Of a stretch of DNA of 64,000 bases, positions 3,347 to 50,541 are shown piece after piece. Numbering within the stretch: the stretch's first letter is position 1; each line of letters starts with the position of its first letter. Source of the DNA: a virus. The notes beneath the pieces are model-generated. The model was given only the letters and a program-made list of their open reading frames with translations. It was not told the DNA's origin and made no database searches. The stretch spans positions 32,001-96,000 of the IMG/VR virus record IMGVR_UViG_3300037524_002067; one strand, written 5' to 3'. A program made the translations under genes and the position numbers.

Positions 3347-4030
3347 TTATTTCTTCAGCAATTCTAATTTACCTTTCATGAATTGTTTAAGACTTGTTTC
3401 TTTTCCAGTTTCATGATCAATAACTCTATCGTCTTTTTCACGATACGTTCTTTTTTTGTCTGACCTTTCACCACTTCCTATTTGAGAATTACGTAAATAG
3501 TTCTGATTCTTAACTCGATTATCTTCAAAAATTTTTTTCAGTTTTTCAGTTAATCTTTCCCAAGCGATTACTTCATTTTTTTCACGATCTCTAGAACCTT
3601 CAGATCTTATTACAATTCCAGAAGGGTGATGTATTAGTTGAACACATGATTCGACTTTGTTCACATTTTGTCCTCCTTTACCTCTACTTCTTACATAATT
3701 TACTGTAACTTGATTTTTATCTAAGAAAAATTTTTCTTTCTCGTCAGTTGATAAAATTGCTACACTTAAAGTAGAAGTATGAATTCTACCACCTCTTTCA
3801 TTTGGCGGAATTCTGCACCAAGAATGAACCCCGATTTCATTTTTAAAGAACTCTTTTACACCATTTCCAGTCAGTCAAATTGATACTAAACCAGGAGTTC
3901 AGTGCTCACTGCTAACAACAAAATTATTGTTTTTGGCTGCTTTAATATACATAGCCGCCATATCCTTAACTAACATTTTCGAATCGTCACCTCCCGTGCC
4001 AATGCGAATTTCAAAAACAATGGTTTCCAT
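3347..4030 (-). CDS. class I peptide chain release factor homolog (RF1-like, lacks domain 1) with two in-frame UGA codons
   Basis: ATG at 4030 is in frame with ORF 3347..3664; EIRIGTGGDD, RIPPNERGGRIHTST, catalytic GKGGQNVNK, QIGSGERSDKKRTY; TGA at codon 44 (3899-3901) and codon 52 (3875-3877). Confidence 0.85.
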
Positions 4031-16209: not shown

Positions 16210-16233
16210 ACATACTGGGAAATTAAAAACTAG

Positions 16234-16318
16234 AAGCGGGGGTCAGATTCGAACTGACGTTCTCTTTCGAGTTAAAGGTTATGAGCCTTCGCTGGATCCA
16301 ACTCCAGTCGACCCCGCA
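16234..16318 (-). tRNA. tRNA-Met(CAT), initiator-like, long variable arm
   Basis: GCGGGG/CCCCGC acceptor with 1:72 mismatch, loop CTCATAA, GTTCGAATC T-loop. Confidence 0.7.
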
Positions 16319-20063: not shown

Positions 20064-20135
20064 TGTTCGTTGTTTTTTTACTATTATAAATAATAACAAA
20101 AAAACTTCGGGCACAGGTTTTTAAAAAATAATTTG

Positions 20136-20221
20136 TGGAAATGACGGGACTCGAACCCGCATTAGAACTTTCGTCCGTCCTGATTGCAAATCAGGTGCCT
20201 AACCAATTAGACTACATCCCC
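20136..20221 (-). tRNA. tRNA-Ala(TGC), long variable arm
   Basis: G3:U70 pair, CCTGA-TTTGCAA-TCAGG arm. Confidence 0.75.
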
Positions 20222-21156: not shown

Positions 21157-21275
21157 AGTTGTAATTTTTGTCTAGGTTTTCTTCCTAACAATTGCTTTTA
21201 GAAGCTGACACATCCTCTGACGTGCCATCCCATGTACTTAGGGTAGCCTTTCAGCAACTTCTAAACTTTTTAATG

Positions 21276-21362
21276 CGGGACTGAAGGGAGTCGAACCCTC
21301 TACGAGATTTTCATCTGCACCACATAGACAGTGTGGCATACCAGCCGTTATACGCCAGCCCC
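21276..21362 (-). tRNA. tRNA-Asp(GTC), long variable arm
   Basis: CCACA-CTGTCTA-TGTGG arm, G73. Confidence 0.75.
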
Positions 21363-21393
21363 AATTTGATTTTTATCTAGGTTTTCTCCTAGT

Positions 21394-42682: not shown

Positions 42683-42684
42683 CG

Positions 42685-42769
42685 CACGTCGAAGAGGATT
42701 CGAACCCCTGTGAGACCTAAGTCTGCTGGTTTTGGAGACCAGTGCTATCAACCACTCTGCCATCGACGT
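42685..42769 (-). tRNA. tRNA-Trp(CCA) with long variable arm
   Basis: CTGGT-CTCCAAA-ACCAG arm, A1:U72, G73, variable stem AGAC/GTCT. Confidence 0.8.
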
Positions 42770-48174: not shown

Positions 48175-48825
48175 TTATTCTAACAACTTATATTCATAAT
48201 AATCCCCCATTAACCACTTATCGCATTGTACCTGCTCAAACTTGCCACTGTTTAATATGGGATAAGTGTGTGCTAAATTTGCACTTCCAACTTTCTTTGG
48301 ATCCTTTTTATTAACAAATTTCCATCCATCATAGTAAATCATTTTTCCAACTTCTTTTTTTCTATAGAATCTGCAACCATCTTTGTAAAGTTGTATTACG
48401 TCTTCCAGGTATTTTTTCCAGGTATCAATCTCATATTGATAATACCACTCGAAATGTTCTCTCACTGATTTTAAAAAACTCTCCTCTCTTTGATTTCTTT
48501 GTTCAGCTATAGCATAACCGCCAATTTCAAACACAAACATTTCTCTTACTTTTTTCCATAATTCTTCTTTATCTTGTGGCTCATACCATAAAACTCCATG
48601 TAAAGCATCTTCCACCATCTCTTCTGGTTCCATACAATATATGTCAACTTTACTATTTGCAATGGTGTATACCCATTGACCTTTTTCATTGATATAGCTA
48701 TATGGTCCATCCCAATAACCAGCTTTCATCTCTGCAAATCGTGGAATGCCGCCAGATAATCTCATGTGCGATGTGCCTTCTGGATCTTCTTTTTGCAAAA
48801 TCTTTATAAACTCACCTGTTGTCAT
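48175..48825 (-). CDS. hypothetical protein
   Basis: 216 aa ORF. Confidence 0.6.
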   Translation of the reverse strand: MTTGEFIKILQKEDPEGTSHMRLSGGIPRFAEMKAGYWDGPYSYINEKGQWVYTIANSKVDIYCMEPEEMVEDALHGVLWYEPQDKEELWKKVREMFVFEIGGYAIAEQRNQREESFLKSVREHFEWYYQYEIDTWKKYLEDVIQLYKDGCRFYRKKEVGKMIYYDGWKFVNKKDPKKVGSANLAHTYPILNSGKFEQVQCDKWLMGDYYEYKLLE

Positions 48826-49270
48826 ATGCTGATTTTTTTTGATTAAACAATATTTTTGCTTCTTTAAGTTTTAACCTAGCTTCTTCAGTTTCAGAACGAA
48901 GAGTCTTGTATTTAGATCTCAATACGTCAATTTGTTGTTCAAGCGCAGATGGTTTAACTGAAACTTTAAACTCGTCTCCAGTGAATCTCCTGCGAATAAA
49001 CGATAATAGTGTTCTAATGGTTCGAAGATTTTGTTTCTTCTCGAAGTAATAGATTTTTCTGGCAAGCTTCTTTCTTGATGAAAGTGTAGATGGGTTAAAG
49101 TACACGTTCTCAAAAATTAAGTTGAGATCGCCTTCGACAACATATTCGCGTTGCGTACAGATTGTTTTTATTTTTTCTATTGCTGATTTTAAATTTTGAG
49201 ACACAGCTTCCTCTGTAAAGGTTTCTTTAATTAATTTTAAAGAATCACCTATTTGATCTTTTGTTTCCAT
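48812..49270 (-). CDS. hypothetical protein
   Basis: 152 aa ORF. Confidence 0.6.
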   Translation of the reverse strand: METKDQIGDSLKLIKETFTEEAVSQNLKSAIEKIKTICTQREYVVEGDLNLIFENVYFNPSTLSSRKKLARKIYYFEKKQNLRTIRTLLSFIRRRFTGDEFKVSVKPSALEQQIDVLRSKYKTLRSETEEARLKLKEAKILFNQKKSAYDNR

Positions 49271-49378
49271 AATGGTTAAAAATTTAATTGTTTGATTAAT
49301 AATTTAATTTGTCACTGATTGTATCAGCCTACATTATGGCGGATTTTCATTTATCTATTTCATAATTTTTATTTTTTG

Positions 49379-49471
49379 TGGGAACGTAGTCATCGAAGAC
49401 CTTGGACATATTTCATCCCGTTCCCTGGTGGAGAGCAACTCACTTAAGAATCTAACCTTTCGGCACTCTCC
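49379..49471 (-). ncRNA. two abutting mini-tRNA-like RNAs (49426-49471, 49379-49425)
   Basis: GGAGAGT/GCTCTCC-ACCA and GGGAACG/CGTTCCC-A acceptor stems, 46-47 nt each. Confidence 0.55.
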
Positions 49472-49480
49472 TTATTTTTG

Positions 49481-49552
49481 TGATCCATGTCGGGATCGAA
49501 CCGACGACCTTGGTTTTTAGAGAACCTCGCTCTGCCGCTGAGCTAATGGATC
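49481..49552 (-). tRNA. amber suppressor tRNA (CTA anticodon)
   Basis: canonical cloverleaf: GATCCAT/ATGGATC, GCTC/GAGC, GGTT-CTCTAAA-AACC, GTCGG-TTCGATC-CCGAC, A73. Confidence 0.9.
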
Positions 49553-49557
49553 ATTTG

Positions 49558-49652
49558 TGGGAGTGTGGTTATCGAAAACCTAGACTCATTACAGCCCACT
49601 CCCTGGTGGGAAATGTAGGATTTTAACCTACTACATCACTAAAGAATTTCCC
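49558..49652 (-). ncRNA. two abutting mini-tRNA-like RNAs (49604-49652, 49558-49603)
   Basis: GGGAAAT/ATTTCCC-ACCA with GTAGG-TTAAAAT-CCTAC T-arm; GGGAGTG/CACTCCC-A with GGTT-TTCGAT-AACC. Confidence 0.55.
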
Positions 49653-49659
49653 TTGTTTT

Positions 49660-50028
49660 TTATTCTTCAAACTCTTTTTTTAATTTGAGGTATTGCTGTT
49701 TTCTCTGTTCTTTTTCACGTTGCTCTCTAATTTTTCTTTGTTCTTCTTCATATATTTCTCTCTTTTTTCTTTCTTCTTCCTCTGCTTTTTTTCGTTCTTC
49801 ATAAACACTGTCCAAATCTTGTGTTAAGCAACTTTCTTCAAAATATTCCTCTTCTGTGTATTCACCTCTGCAATATTTGTGATAAACAACCTTGAATGAA
49901 CCGTCTTCAAGCAAGTGTAATTCGCTTGGTTCTCCTCCATATTTAACAACACAATATTGCATTGCTCTTTTATAGATAGATCTTAAATCTGTTGTGATAT
50001 TATTTTCCACCAACAACCTCCTTTCCAT
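49660..50028 (-). CDS. hypothetical protein with charged coiled-coil tail
   Basis: ORF 49660..50118; start uncertain, probably near the end of the upstream gene. Confidence 0.55.
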   Translation of the reverse strand: MERRLLVENNITTDLRSIYKRAMQYCVVKYGGEPSELHLLEDGSFKVVYHKYCRGEYTEEEYFEESCLTQDLDSVYEERKKAEEEERKKREIYEEEQRKIREQREKEQRKQQYLKLKKEFEE

Positions 50029-50392
50029 GATATTGTTGAAACGCTGTGGTATATTCCCTGAAGGCGAGTGGAAGATTTGATACAAGTCTATTTGATTCCT
50101 CAGATGGTTCCAAGGCAATAGCTGTTAACTCGTGATCAAAATCTGGTTCAACAAATGATGAACATAAAATTCCTCTCGTGTGGGCTTTTAGTAAAAATTC
50201 GTTTAATGATTTTTCGTTATCGCAGGATAGGATAACAATGTGTCTGGACTTAAAGTACCATTCACTTTGAACAGCGTCGTGTTCTTTTTGAAATTGTTCA
50301 GCTGCATGCAAAGATTGTGCAGCTTGAGCGCCTGGGGCGATATCACGTCTTACGACTATGATTAGTTTCGATTTGTTATTAATCTACTTCAT
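50000..50392 (-). CDS. peptidyl-tRNA hydrolase type 2-like protein with in-frame UAG at codon 3
   Basis: ATG AAG TAG ATT...: MK*INNKSKLIIVVRRDIAPGAQAAQSLHAA...W...IVIL...EPD...LTAIALEP...LPL. Confidence 0.8.
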
Positions 50393-50541
50393 GGTTTCTT
50401 TTTTTTTGTTTTTTTTAATCTTACTCAGAGTTTATAAATATGAATAAAATTTGTTTTACAGAATCTTATACACACAAATGTAATATAAAGTTTCACCAAA
50501 ATGCAAATATTTTTGAAATTTATTTATCAATTATCTGATTT

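What the first reader, a model, noticed from the sequence alone, without database searches (positions are those of the whole stretch)
49481..50392. Pth2-like gene with UAG at codon 3 upstream of an amber-suppressor tRNA
Seen: ATG AAG TAG ATT AAT... (TAG at 50384-50386) continues in frame into the conserved Pth2-type N-terminal motif KLIIVVRRD...QAAQ..HAA, with no ATG between the stop and that motif. A canonical tRNA with CUA anticodon lies about 450 nt past the end of the gene in the same apparent transcript. The upstream region (50430-50495) has the same three-part promoter layout as the two tRNA attenuator operons. Long ORFs in the window contain no internal TAG, so this is not genome-wide recoding. 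Inference: an amber-gated switch linking RF1 activity or suppressor level to peptidyl-tRNA recycling.
Basis: partly seen in the sequence, partly recalled or inferred. Interest (0 to 1): 0.82.

Follow-up and report, generated by a model that had tools for sequence, protein, structure and literature searches.

The report
Stop-codon-gated phage Pth2-like gene
A large phage that otherwise uses the normal genetic code starts a small tRNA-hydrolase-like gene with ATG-AAG-TAG and carries its own UAG-reading tRNA 447 bases downstream; over a hundred distant phage loci keep this layout, and the stop codon changes together with the tRNA's anticodon, so the protein is probably made only when that tRNA overrides the stop.

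Summary
Observation confirmed. ATG(50392) AAG TAG(50386-50384) runs in frame into a 127-codon Pth2-fold ORF. The first canonical start after the TAG (TTG 50311) lies inside the conserved core. tRNA-CUA sits 447 nt downstream on the same strand.

The refutation test failed the other way: homologs keep the stop. Of 127 related loci, 105 have a start codon (ATG; GTG in Myrna), 0-8 further codons, then a stop (98 TAG, 6 TAA, 1 TGA), 0-15 codons before the core. These same genes end in TAA 74, TGA 38, TAG 14.

Gate codon and suppressor anticodon covary:
- TAG with CUA in 58 loci.
- TAA with UUA in L047, L132 and genome G001.
- TGA with UCA in L098.
- All 68 matching tRNAs are co-oriented with the gene.

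Exceptions: one complete 519-kb genome has a TAG gate but no detectable suppressor tRNA, and contig L063 shows only tRNA-UUA.

The window's record and a complete 405-kb relative are standard-code, so this is a single-gene gate, not recoding.

Best reading: expression of the Pth2-like protein depends on suppression. What the protein does, and in which direction any loop runs, is inference.

I found no paper describing the gate. This scan has reported the same layout before on other genomes (for example e1-933198, e1-6022007). Nothing here is experimental.

The parts
50475..50507 (-). Promoter-like element of Bacteroidota type: TTTG (50507-50504), 21-nt spacer, TAcaTTTG (50482-50475)
   Evidence: Sequence. 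Three other copies in the same record. The alignment of the four copies has invariant TTTG, TGAAAC and TAnnTTTG. That this is the Bacteroidota -33/-7 consensus rests on my own knowledge.
50387..50392 (-). Leader: start codon ATG plus AAG (Met-Lys), preceded by an A-rich, Shine-Dalgarno-less stretch
   Evidence: Across gated loci the 20 nt before the leader ATG are 57% A. In 14 loci an AGGAG-like Shine-Dalgarno lies 5-9 nt before this ATG.
50384..50386 (-). Gate: in-frame TAG at codon 3, followed by A (ATT)
   Evidence: A stop is conserved at the equivalent place in 105 of 127 loci. The base after the gate is A in 75, G in 29 and C in 1.
50000..50383 (-). Body of the Pth2-like ORF (127 codons) with its TAA stop at 50002-50000
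   Evidence: Pfam PTH2. phrog_1866 at E 2.7e-18. AlphaFold2 model with pLDDT 94.5. Foldseek top hits are archaeal Pth2 and human Bit1, TM 0.65-0.76. The family profile hits PDB chain 2zv3 at E 5.8e-10.
49660..50028 (-). Small Lys/Glu-rich ORF between the gene and the tRNA; function unknown; not conserved in the related loci
   Evidence: Searches give no family match. tblastn finds no relative in the loci.
49553..49652 (-). Two tRNA-like minihelices (acceptor stem plus T arm) directly upstream of tRNA-CUA, the first ending in ACCA
   Evidence: Sequence. Partial Rfam tRNA match of 24.4 bits at 49607-49652. Not studied further.
49480..49552 (-). tRNA with anticodon CUA (amber suppressor): standard cloverleaf, loop CUCUAAA, discriminator A, no encoded CCA
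   Evidence: ARAGORN. Rfam tRNA 61.1 bits with alignment. It is the only suppressor among the 37 tRNAs of the held record.
49379..49479 (-). Two more tRNA-like minihelices after the tRNA
Evidence: Sequence. Not tested.
49334..49363 (-). Mini-ORF ATG AAA TAG ATA AAT GAA AAT CCG CCA TAA (MK*INENPP*)
   Evidence: Not found in the closest relatives L056 and L057. My estimate from base composition is about 0.6 such 12-mers by chance in the whole record. Possibly chance.

Best explanation
**Proposed mechanism.** Ribosomes start at the leader ATG (50392), make Met-Lys and meet UAG at codon 3. If release factor 1 wins, a dipeptide is released and no enzyme is made. If the phage's own tRNA-CUA decodes the UAG, translation continues into the 127-codon Pth2-fold protein. 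The tRNA lies 447 nt downstream and is probably on the same transcript. The yield of the protein therefore follows the efficiency of amber suppression in the infected cell.

**Shown**
- The anatomy of the locus.
- Conservation of the early stop.
- Covariation of the stop with the suppressor's anticodon.
- The standard code of the rest of the genome.
- The Pth2 fold.

**Inferred**
- That the tRNA is made, charged and reads the gate.
- That this coupling is the selected function.

**Most likely purpose (weakly supported).** Suppression produces read-through, stalled ribosomes and dropped-off peptidyl-tRNA. The gate would make a tRNA-ester hydrolase in proportion to that load, or only once suppression is running. 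A closed feedback loop on the suppressor itself is the bolder alternative.
For: 1. **Conserved gate.** 105 of 127 loci have a start codon, 0-8 further codons, a stop, then 0-15 codons before the core. They span phage homologs 29-73% identical to the window's protein and at least 65 of 83 clusters at 80% identity. The leaders differ (MK, MT, MKET, MKH, MKDT, MSL, MKKPFYY...) while the stop stays.
2. **Wrong stop for chance.** The upstream bounding stop is TAG 103, TAA 11, TGA 10. The same genes end in TAA 74, TGA 38, TAG 14. Neighbouring long ORFs end in TAG in under 10% of cases.
3. **Covariation.** A TAG gate has tRNA-CUA in the locus 58 times. TAA gates in L047 and L132 have tRNA-UUA, and the TGA gate in L098 has tRNA-UCA.
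4. **Prediction tests in complete genomes.**
   - G001 (675 kb, TAA gate): its only suppressor among 40 tRNAs is UUA.
   - G007 (452 kb, TAG gate): its only clear suppressor is CUA, 126 kb from the gene.
   - G002 (405 kb, TAG gate): its only suppressor is CUA, about 1 kb from the gene.
5. **Linkage.** All 68 matching suppressors are on the gene's strand: 50 downstream (median 887 nt) and 18 upstream (median 50 nt). Suppressors make up 86 of 344 tRNAs in these loci.
6. **Initiation at the leader ATG.** An AGGAG-like site lies 5-9 nt before it in 14 loci. The other loci have A-rich upstream regions.
7. **Context.** The base after the gate is a purine in 104 of 105 loci. By my own knowledge this favours tRNA suppression.
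8. **Gate specific to this gene.** In about 800 kb of loci the same pattern finds 75 Pth2-like ORFs. The other 35 hits are scattered and show no TAG excess. The own record has no other clear case.
9. **Standard code elsewhere**.
Against: - Nothing is experimental. Expression, processing, CCA addition and charging of the tRNA are unknown, and its amino-acid identity could not be inferred.
- One complete genome (G006, 519 kb) has a TAG gate but no suppressor tRNA among 55 Rfam tRNA hits. One 3.1-kb contig (L063) shows a TAG gate with only tRNA-UUA.
- The codon after the gate is ATT, ATA or ATC in 64 of 105 loci and GTG in 2. Low-level initiation there is not excluded.
- In the cluster C mycobacteriophages a GGAGG-like site lies 7 nt before the post-gate GTG. 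Ordinary initiation at the annotated GTG is possible there.
- Fourteen homologs, mostly GC-rich, have no gate yet often sit beside a suppressor. The gene-tRNA link does not require the gate.
- Phages with a TAA gate still end most genes in TAA (24 of 33). Suppression must therefore be weak or brief.
- The protein lacks the GKGK loop of canonical Pth2 and scores far below NCBIfam's Pth2 cut-off (28.7 against 126 bits). Its substrate is uncertain.
Confidence: 0.7

Rival explanations
1. The ATG-AAG-TAG is a two-codon upstream mini-ORF. The real protein starts by reinitiation or non-AUG initiation at the ATT right after the stop, or at the annotated GTG in mycobacteriophages. The nearby suppressor tRNA plays no part.
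For: The codon after the gate is ATT, ATA or ATC in 64 and GTG in 2 of 105 loci. In Bxz1, Cane17, Myrna and ScoobyDoobyDoo a GGAGG- or GAAGG-like site lies 7 nt before the post-gate GTG. Genome G006 has the gate but no detectable suppressor.
Against: Reinitiation does not care which stop codon is used. Yet TAG, the rarest stop in these genomes, is used in 98 of 105 gates, and the rare TAA and TGA gates come with UUA and UCA suppressors. In 14 loci the next codon cannot initiate, and in 25 it is GTA or GTT. Where present, the Shine-Dalgarno is spaced for the leader ATG. The ungated homolog L106 starts M-IKEGDKL, and gated ones read Mx*IKEGDKL, so the Ile looks like an internal residue.
Confidence: 0.12
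2. The gate is read mainly by host factors: near-cognate tRNAs against release factor 1. It would sense the cell's termination capacity rather than the phage suppressor. The suppressor is linked for another reason.
For: G006 keeps the gate without a suppressor. The window's phage also encodes an RF1-like protein, so termination capacity may be manipulated. Ungated homologs are still linked to suppressors.
Against: This does not explain why the gate codon follows the anticodon of the linked suppressor across all three stop codons. By my own knowledge, near-cognate read-through of UAG or UAA in bacteria is usually well under 1%.
Confidence: 0.1
3. The phage uses an alternative code (TAG as a sense codon, code 15) and this TAG is an ordinary sense codon.
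For: tRNA-CUA is present. The record is only 59% complete. Database proteins P0006 and P0007 read MKQIN at this place. Lak phages, which by the literature recode TAG, carry a homolog.
Against: Standard-code coverage is 72-99% per 10-kb bin and gains no more from reading TAG than from reading TGA. No long ORF pair is split by TAG. TerL, a virion protein and DNA polymerase are uninterrupted. The complete relative G002 is 93.7% covered under the standard code, with 26 genes ending in TAG. The TAG always sits at the same early place and nowhere else in the ORF. The Q in database proteins may come from code-15 gene calling.
Confidence: 0.04
4. A nonsense mutation, pseudogene or assembly error.
For: Gene callers truncate the gene to 103 aa from TTG (P0003 and P0004).
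Against: The same feature appears in over 100 independent assemblies, including isolate genomes, with intact downstream ORFs of 100-130 aa.
Confidence: 0.01

Closest known systems
Stop-codon-recoded phages with phage-encoded suppressor tRNAs (Borges et al., preprint 10.1101/2021.08.26.457843; crAss-like and Lak phages, code 15 or code 4)
   Same: A phage-encoded suppressor tRNA lets ribosomes pass in-frame stops in phage genes inside a standard-code host. Those authors propose the stops act as a timing or regulatory device, and they note suppressor acquisition by standard-code relatives.
   Different: There, 26-71% of genes carry in-frame stops, mostly late and lysis genes. Here the genome is standard-code and one small gene carries one stop at codons 2-10. 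The preprint's text contains neither 'peptidyl' nor 'hydrolase'.
prfB (release factor 2) autoregulation through an early in-frame UGA (my own knowledge)
   Same: An early in-frame stop in a translation-termination-related gene makes its expression depend on how efficiently that stop is read as a stop.
   Different: prfB escapes by a +1 frameshift and its product acts on the stop directly. Here the frame is unchanged, escape needs a dedicated tRNA, and whether the product affects read-through is unknown.
Archaeal and eukaryotic peptidyl-tRNA hydrolase Pth2 (PDB 2zv3, 3erj, 1wn2, 1xty; human Bit1 1q7s); PTH2 noted in jumbo phages by Iyer et al. 2021 (PMC7824862) and in cluster C mycobacteriophage tRNA arrays by Morgado and Vicente 2018 (PMC5966550)
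   Same: Same fold and Pfam family. The phage gene was already catalogued and a role in ribosome rescue was suggested.
   Different: The phage family replaces the GKGK loop with PG(A/Y)Q and the D-x-G-x-T motif with E-P-D. It scores below NCBIfam's equivalog cut-off. Neither paper mentions a gate or suppressor tRNAs: the word 'suppressor' occurs 0 times in both.
Suppressor tRNAs of standard-code jumbo phages with no known target (XacN1, PMC5852040; Atu_ph07, PMC6102473)
   Same: Large phages carry a tRNA-CUA or tRNA-UCA and, separately listed, peptidyl-tRNA hydrolase genes.
   Different: The XacN1 authors read through the amber stops at gene ends and could not identify a target. The target proposed here is at the start of a gene. 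I did not examine those two genomes.

Membership tests
Pth2 (PF01981) peptidyl-tRNA hydrolase family | Sequence match above the curated Pfam threshold over the whole domain | tested here: met
   34.9 bits against a cut-off of 23; residues 9-100 on profile positions 2-103 of 115. The profile of 60 phage members hits PDB Pth2 chains at E 5.8e-10 to 1e-3.
Pth2 (PF01981) peptidyl-tRNA hydrolase family | Pth2 alpha/beta fold | tested here: met
   AlphaFold2 model with pLDDT 94.5. The top 14 Foldseek PDB hits are all Pth2 or Bit1, TM 0.54-0.76.
Pth2 (PF01981) peptidyl-tRNA hydrolase family | Orthology-level match (NCBIfam equivalog models NF003314 and TIGR00283) | tested here: not met
   28.7 and 26 bits against cut-offs of 126 and 82. 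PHROGs files the family as phrog_1866, function unknown.
Pth2 (PF01981) peptidyl-tRNA hydrolase family | Conserved catalytic residues. As I recall them for the Sulfolobus enzyme: the Lys of the GKGK loop and the Asp of the D-x-G-x-T motif. | tested here: inconclusive
   In the alignment to 2zv3 the Lys position is Ala or Tyr and the loop is two residues shorter. The Asp aligns with an invariant Glu of the E-P-D motif. Which residues are catalytic rests on my memory, not on a tool.
Pth2 (PF01981) peptidyl-tRNA hydrolase family | Hydrolysis of peptidyl- or N-blocked aminoacyl-tRNA | not testable with these tools
   Needs an enzyme assay.
Alternatively coded (stop-recoded) phage | Many genes, especially late ones, interrupted by the reassigned stop; low standard-code coding density | tested here: not met
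   for the held 59% of the genome. for the complete relative G002.
Alternatively coded (stop-recoded) phage | Phage-encoded suppressor tRNA matching the in-frame stop | tested here: met
prfB-type autoregulatory recoding | Early in-frame stop in the coding sequence, conserved across homologs | tested here: met
prfB-type autoregulatory recoding | Escape by +1 frameshift with an internal Shine-Dalgarno stimulator | tested here: not met
   The ORF continues in the same frame directly after the stop.
prfB-type autoregulatory recoding | The gene product acts on its own recoding site, closing the loop | not testable with these tools
   Needs experiments.
Pyrrolysine system (ARAGORN labels the tRNA 'Pyl') | The distinctive pylT shape and pylS/pylBCD genes | not tested
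   ARAGORN's label follows from the anticodon alone. The tRNA fits the general tRNA model at 61 bits with an ordinary cloverleaf. I did not search for pyl genes.

The most novel reading that the evidence does not exclude
The gate, the suppressor tRNA and the Pth2-like enzyme form a closed, portable feedback circuit. The enzyme would act on the suppressor tRNA's own ester, either aminoacyl- or peptidyl-tRNA(CUA/UUA/UCA), or on the direct products of read-through. Its synthesis needs read-through, so the phage would hold stop-codon suppression at a set level or fire it as a pulse. This would be a tRNA-based analogue of RF2 autoregulation. It would also explain why standard-code phages, including cultured cluster C mycobacteriophages, carry suppressor tRNAs.
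Probability: 0.25. Interest if true: 0.9.

Novelty: new variant of a known kind. Interest (0 to 1): 0.8.

Why it matters
- **A target for puzzling tRNAs.** Suppressor tRNAs in standard-code phages have had no known target. The XacN1 authors looked for one and could not identify it. A conserved, codon-matched target at the start of a linked gene gives a concrete and testable answer.
- **An unusual control principle.** One gene's translation is keyed to a dedicated tRNA encoded beside it. All three stop codons are used interchangeably, provided the tRNA matches.
- **A possible first step towards recoding.** It could be an early foothold for the code changes seen in crAss-like and Lak phages.
- **Annotation.** Gene callers truncate this gene to 103 aa from TTG, start it after the stop, or read the stop as Q.
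- **Testability.** Cultured phages (Bxz1, Myrna and about 200 relatives on M. smegmatis) carry the same start-TAG arrangement with tRNA-CUA 130-300 nt downstream. The idea can be tested at the bench now.
- **Tools.** Natural gate and tRNA pairs may be useful as orthogonal switches.

Tried and rejected
- **Close relatives by DNA.** megablast of 6 kb against INPHARED phages found nothing.
- **Single-protein scan of viral contigs.** No confirmed relative. The alignment-based scan then worked.
I could not see the DNA behind database proteins P0002-P0010. So I cannot tell whether the Q at the gate position in P0002, P0006 and P0007 is a real CAG/CAA or a code-15 gene call. I do not count it as evidence.
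- **Amino-acid identity of the suppressor.** Pairwise similarity of 76 distinct suppressors to 191 ordinary tRNAs gave no consistent isotype. No tRNA-Gln is present in the held part of the genome.
- **Known ribozyme or RNA family around the tRNA.** I suspected theta or HDV-like ribozymes. Rfam gave only a partial tRNA-like hit.
- **Conserved partner gene.** The ORF between gene and tRNA is not conserved. Two downstream ORFs (48812-49270 and 48175-48825) recur in 9 and 8 loci but match no family.
- **Cellular homologs.** Only 8 hits in 185,579 species genomes. At least one is a jumbo-phage contig binned as an archaeon, so the family looks phage-specific.
- **Second MK*IN mini-ORF (49334-49363).** Absent from the closest relatives and near chance expectation, so not counted.
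- **tmRNA in the record.** No hit over threshold.
- **Recoding, pseudogene and plain reinitiation.** Considered and rejected or down-weighted, as set out under the rival explanations.
Full report
**1. The observation**

The window is bases 32001-96000 of a 154,343-bp IMG/VR virus record. CheckV estimates it as 59% complete, and its G+C content is 32.5%. Most genes lie on the minus strand.

At the given place the minus strand reads ATG(50392-50390) AAG TAG(50386-50384) ATT AAT AAC AAA TCG AAA CTA ATC ATA GTC GTA AGA CGT GAT. The frame then stays open to TAA at 50002-50000. With the TAG read as a residue, the 130-aa product matches Pfam PTH2 over nearly the whole domain (E 2e-8, 34.9 bits against a cut-off of 23).

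The first ATG, GTG or TTG after the TAG is TTG at 50311. That is 24 codons in and lies inside the conserved core.

A tRNA with anticodon CUA lies at 49480-49552 on the same strand, 447 nt after the gene. It has a normal cloverleaf (Rfam 61.1 bits). No terminator-like site lies between gene and tRNA on that strand.

The region upstream of the gene is one of four copies of a promoter-like element in the record. The copies share TTTG-N21-TAnnTTTG and downstream blocks. By my own knowledge this is the Bacteroidota -33/-7 layout. One of the other copies heads a tRNA array.

**2. Not genome-wide recoding**

- Standard-code ORFs cover 72-99% of each 10-kb bin of the record. Reading TAG as sense adds no more than reading TGA as sense.
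- No pair of ORFs of 80 codons or more is split by a TAG.
- Long ORFs end in TAA 78, TGA 18 and TAG 9.
- The terminase large subunit, a virion structural protein, DNA polymerase and ribonucleotide reductase are uninterrupted.
- Because 41% of this genome is missing, I read 400 kb of a complete 405-kb relative that has the same gate (G002). It has 93.7% standard-code coverage (95.3% with TAG read through, 96.0% with TGA read through). Its long ORFs end in TAA 238, TGA 57 and TAG 26. It has 39 tRNAs and a single suppressor, a tRNA-CUA about 1 kb from the gated gene.

**3. Homologs keep the stop**

The opposite is true.

- Scans with a family alignment gave 44 loci from viral contigs and 80 of at least 326 from metagenomes.
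- tblastn against cultured and deposited phages found 228 records: 206 Mycobacterium phages of cluster C, 12 Lak phages, 7 huge uncultured phages, 2 Acinetobacter phages and 1 Mycolicibacterium phage.

Over 127 loci analysed the same way:

| Class | Loci |
|---|---|
| Gated, TAG | 98 |
| Gated, TAA | 6 |
| Gated, TGA | 1 |
| Ungated (mostly GC-rich) | 14 |
| Cut or unclear | 8 |

- "Gated" means a start codon (ATG; GTG in Myrna), 0-8 further codons (most often one), a stop, then 0-15 codons before the KL(I/Y)xVTRxD core.
- The two mycobacteriophages in this set (Bxz1, Myrna) have a GTG right after the stop.
- The gated loci span at least 65 of 83 clusters at 80% identity and at least 23 of 37 at 60%.
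- The leaders differ freely (MK, MT, MKET, MKH, MTH, MKDT, MSL, MG, MCS, MKLD, MKKPFYY) while the stop stays.

An internal control makes the same point. The stop that bounds the ORF upstream is TAG 103, TAA 11, TGA 10. The same genes terminate with TAA 74, TGA 38, TAG 14. Neighbouring long ORFs end in TAG in under 10% of cases.

The same layout is present in the huge phages LR756500-LR756504 and in contigs binned into MAGs.

**4. The stop and the tRNA change together**

- Of the TAG-gated loci, 58 hold a tRNA-CUA.
- The TAA-gated loci L047 and L132 hold a tRNA-UUA. In L047 it lies about 60 nt upstream of the leader ATG.
- The single TGA-gated locus, L098, holds a tRNA-UCA 1.2 kb downstream.
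- All 68 matching suppressors lie on the gene's strand: 50 downstream (median 887 nt) and 18 upstream (median 50 nt).
- Of 47 gated loci with enough flanking DNA, 37 hold the matching tRNA. Suppressors are 86 of 344 tRNAs in these loci.

I then tested the prediction in complete genomes whose locus lacked a suppressor:

| Genome | Size | Gate | Result |
|---|---|---|---|
| G001 | 675 kb | TAA | One suppressor among 40 tRNAs, and it is UUA |
| G007 | 452 kb | TAG | One clear suppressor, CUA, 126 kb from the gene |
| G006 | 519 kb | TAG | None found among 55 Rfam tRNA hits, including those ARAGORN missed |

G006 is a real exception. So is the 3.1-kb contig L063, which has a TAG gate but shows only a UUA tRNA.

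**5. Where translation starts**

- In 14 loci from hosts that evidently use Shine-Dalgarno sites, an AGGAG-like motif lies 5-9 nt before the leader ATG. That is too far from the codon after the stop.
- In the other loci, this window included, the 20 nt before the ATG are A-rich (57% A on average). This fits Shine-Dalgarno-less initiation.
- The codon after the stop is ATT 56, GTA 17, GTT 8, AAC 6, ATA 5, ATC 3, GTG 2, ACA 2, and GGC, GGA, ACT, CTT, AAG and AGT once each. At least 14 cannot initiate and 25 are poor candidates.
- Its first base is a purine in 104 of 105 loci. By my own knowledge this context favours tRNA suppression over release.
- The ungated homolog L106 begins M-IKEGDKL where gated relatives read Mx*IKEGDKL. 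The Ile therefore looks like an internal residue.

In the mycobacteriophages the picture is ambiguous. TTGACA-17/18-TAnnnT lies 6-7 nt before [A/G]TG TAG GTG, which suggests a leaderless mRNA beginning at the start-stop. A GGAGG- or GAAGG-like site 7 nt before the second GTG would equally serve ordinary initiation.

**6. The gate is specific to this gene**

A scan of about 800 kb of loci looked for ATG, up to 8 codons, a stop, then a long ORF without an early start.
- It found 75 Pth2-like ORFs.
- The other 35 hits were scattered and showed no TAG excess.
- The window's own record has no other clear case.
- In G002 one more candidate turned up: a Radical_SAM ORF directly behind ATG AAC ATT TAG. 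I did not follow it further.

**7. The protein**

- A model built from 60 family members has pLDDT 94.5.
- Its best structural matches are archaeal Pth2 enzymes and human Bit1, with TM 0.65-0.76.
- The family profile finds the same PDB chains by sequence (E 5.8e-10).
- It is nonetheless a divergent branch. PHROGs files it as phrog_1866, function unknown. It scores 28.7 bits against NCBIfam's Pth2 cut-off of 126.
- In the alignment to 2zv3, the GKGK loop is shortened to PG(A/Y)Q and D-x-G-x-T is replaced by an invariant E-P-D.
- Whether it hydrolyses ordinary peptidyl-tRNA is therefore open.
- Only 8 hits occur in 185,579 species genomes, at least one on a mis-binned phage contig. The family looks phage-specific.

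**8. Mechanism**

Shown:
- The anatomy of the locus.
- Conservation of the early stop.
- Codon-anticodon covariation.
- Co-orientation of tRNA and gene.
- The standard code elsewhere.
- The Pth2 fold.

Inferred:
- Ribosomes start at the leader ATG.
- Only those at which the phage suppressor beats the release factor go on to make the protein.
- Its yield therefore reports suppression efficiency.

Why a phage wants this is speculation. I think the likeliest reason is to match a tRNA-ester hydrolase to the load created by suppression: read-through, stalled ribosomes and dropped peptidyl-tRNA. Iyer et al. already proposed a ribosome-rescue role for phage PTH2.

The bolder alternative is a closed loop in which the enzyme acts on the suppressor itself, as in RF2 autoregulation. 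One fact bears on strength. Phages with a TAA gate and a UUA suppressor still end 24 of 33 long neighbouring ORFs in TAA. Suppression must therefore be weak or brief.

Fourteen ungated homologs, 12 of 19 ungated or unclear loci with a suppressor next door, show that the gene-tRNA partnership is older or broader than the gate.

**9. Context in this phage**

The same record encodes an RF1-like protein that lacks domain 1 (171 bits to prfA against 102 to prfB). It carries two in-frame TGA codons (window 3347-4030). Its 54%-identical homolog in the nearest relative also has two TGAs. The held record has no tRNA-UCA. Four other jumbo phages with the Pth2 gate lack this gene, so it is not part of the module. 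It does suggest that this phage tunes termination in more than one way.

**10. Literature and earlier scan notes**

- Six full-text searches found no description of the gate or of a Pth2-suppressor link.
- The XacN1 and Atu_ph07 papers list suppressor tRNAs and Pth genes separately. The XacN1 authors could not identify a target for their tRNA-CUA.
- The text of the Borges et al. preprint contains neither 'peptidyl' nor 'hydrolase'.
- Iyer et al. and Morgado and Vicente mention phage PTH2, but the word 'suppressor' does not occur in either paper.
- The library covers open-access papers only.
- This scan has reported the same layout on other genomes several times (e1-933198, e1-5815015, e1-5821679, e1-6022007 and others). 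A later check of one of them kept the observation but priced the bold reading low. My result was reached on this window's data and agrees with them.

**11. Limits**

- No experiment exists.
- The inserted amino acid is unknown.
- One complete genome breaks the tRNA rule.
- The mycobacteriophage case is ambiguous.

Noticed in passing
window 3347-4030 (-); L156 (G005:15086-18730): RF1-like gene with a GGQ motif that lacks domain 1 (171 bits to NCBIfam prfA against 102 to prfB). It has two in-frame TGA codons (SSEH*TPGLVSI*LTGNG). The 54%-identical homolog in the closest relative also has two TGAs. No tRNA-UCA is present in the held record, and the gene is absent from four other jumbo phages that have the Pth2 gate.
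   Followed up: partly
window 49379-49479 and 49553-49652 (-): Four 46-55-nt tRNA-like minihelices (acceptor stem plus T arm; two end in ACCA) flank the tRNA-CUA. One gives a partial Rfam tRNA hit of 24 bits. They may be processing signals or decoys.
   Followed up: partly
window 49334-49363 (-): Mini-ORF ATG AAA TAG ATA AAT GAA AAT CCG CCA TAA (MK*INENPP*) just after the tRNA cluster, echoing the gene's MK*IN. It is not present in the closest relatives L056 and L057 and could be chance.
   Followed up: partly
whole record G000, for example window 16233-16318, 20135-20221, 21275-21363, 42684-42769: Many tRNAs come in pairs with the same anticodon: one ordinary copy of about 74 nt and one of 85-89 nt with a long variable arm (Cys, Ile, Lys, Thr, Asn, Met, Ala, Asp, Trp).
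   Followed up: no
L174:3342-3653 (-) (G002 about 343,345-343,665): In a complete 405-kb relative, a Radical_SAM-domain ORF (Pfam 34.5 bits, 104 aa) begins right after ATG AAC ATT TAG, about 10 kb from that genome's only tRNA-CUA. It may be a second gated gene.
   Followed up: partly
L182, L183, L184, L185 (G006): A 519-kb phage with a TAG gate but no suppressor tRNA carries odd tRNAs. Two have an 8-nt anticodon loop (ARAGORN anticodon 'agaa'). Others carry 30-40-nt inserts in the anticodon arm.
   Followed up: no
L041:1905-2158: Group I intron (Rfam RF00028, 91.6 bits) about 4 kb upstream of the Pth2-like gene in a related phage contig.
   Followed up: no
window 48175-48825 and 48812-49270 (-): Two ORFs downstream of the tRNA-CUA recur downstream of the Pth2-like gene in 8 and 9 related loci. 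They match no Pfam, PHROG or NCBIfam family.
   Followed up: partly
database proteins P0002-P0007: Public gene calls treat this gene inconsistently. P0003 and P0004 are cut to 103 aa from an internal TTG. P0002, P0006 and P0007 carry Q at the gate position, possibly from code-15 calling. Mycobacteriophage annotations start at the GTG after the TAG and label the tRNA 'tRNA-OTHER'.
   Followed up: no
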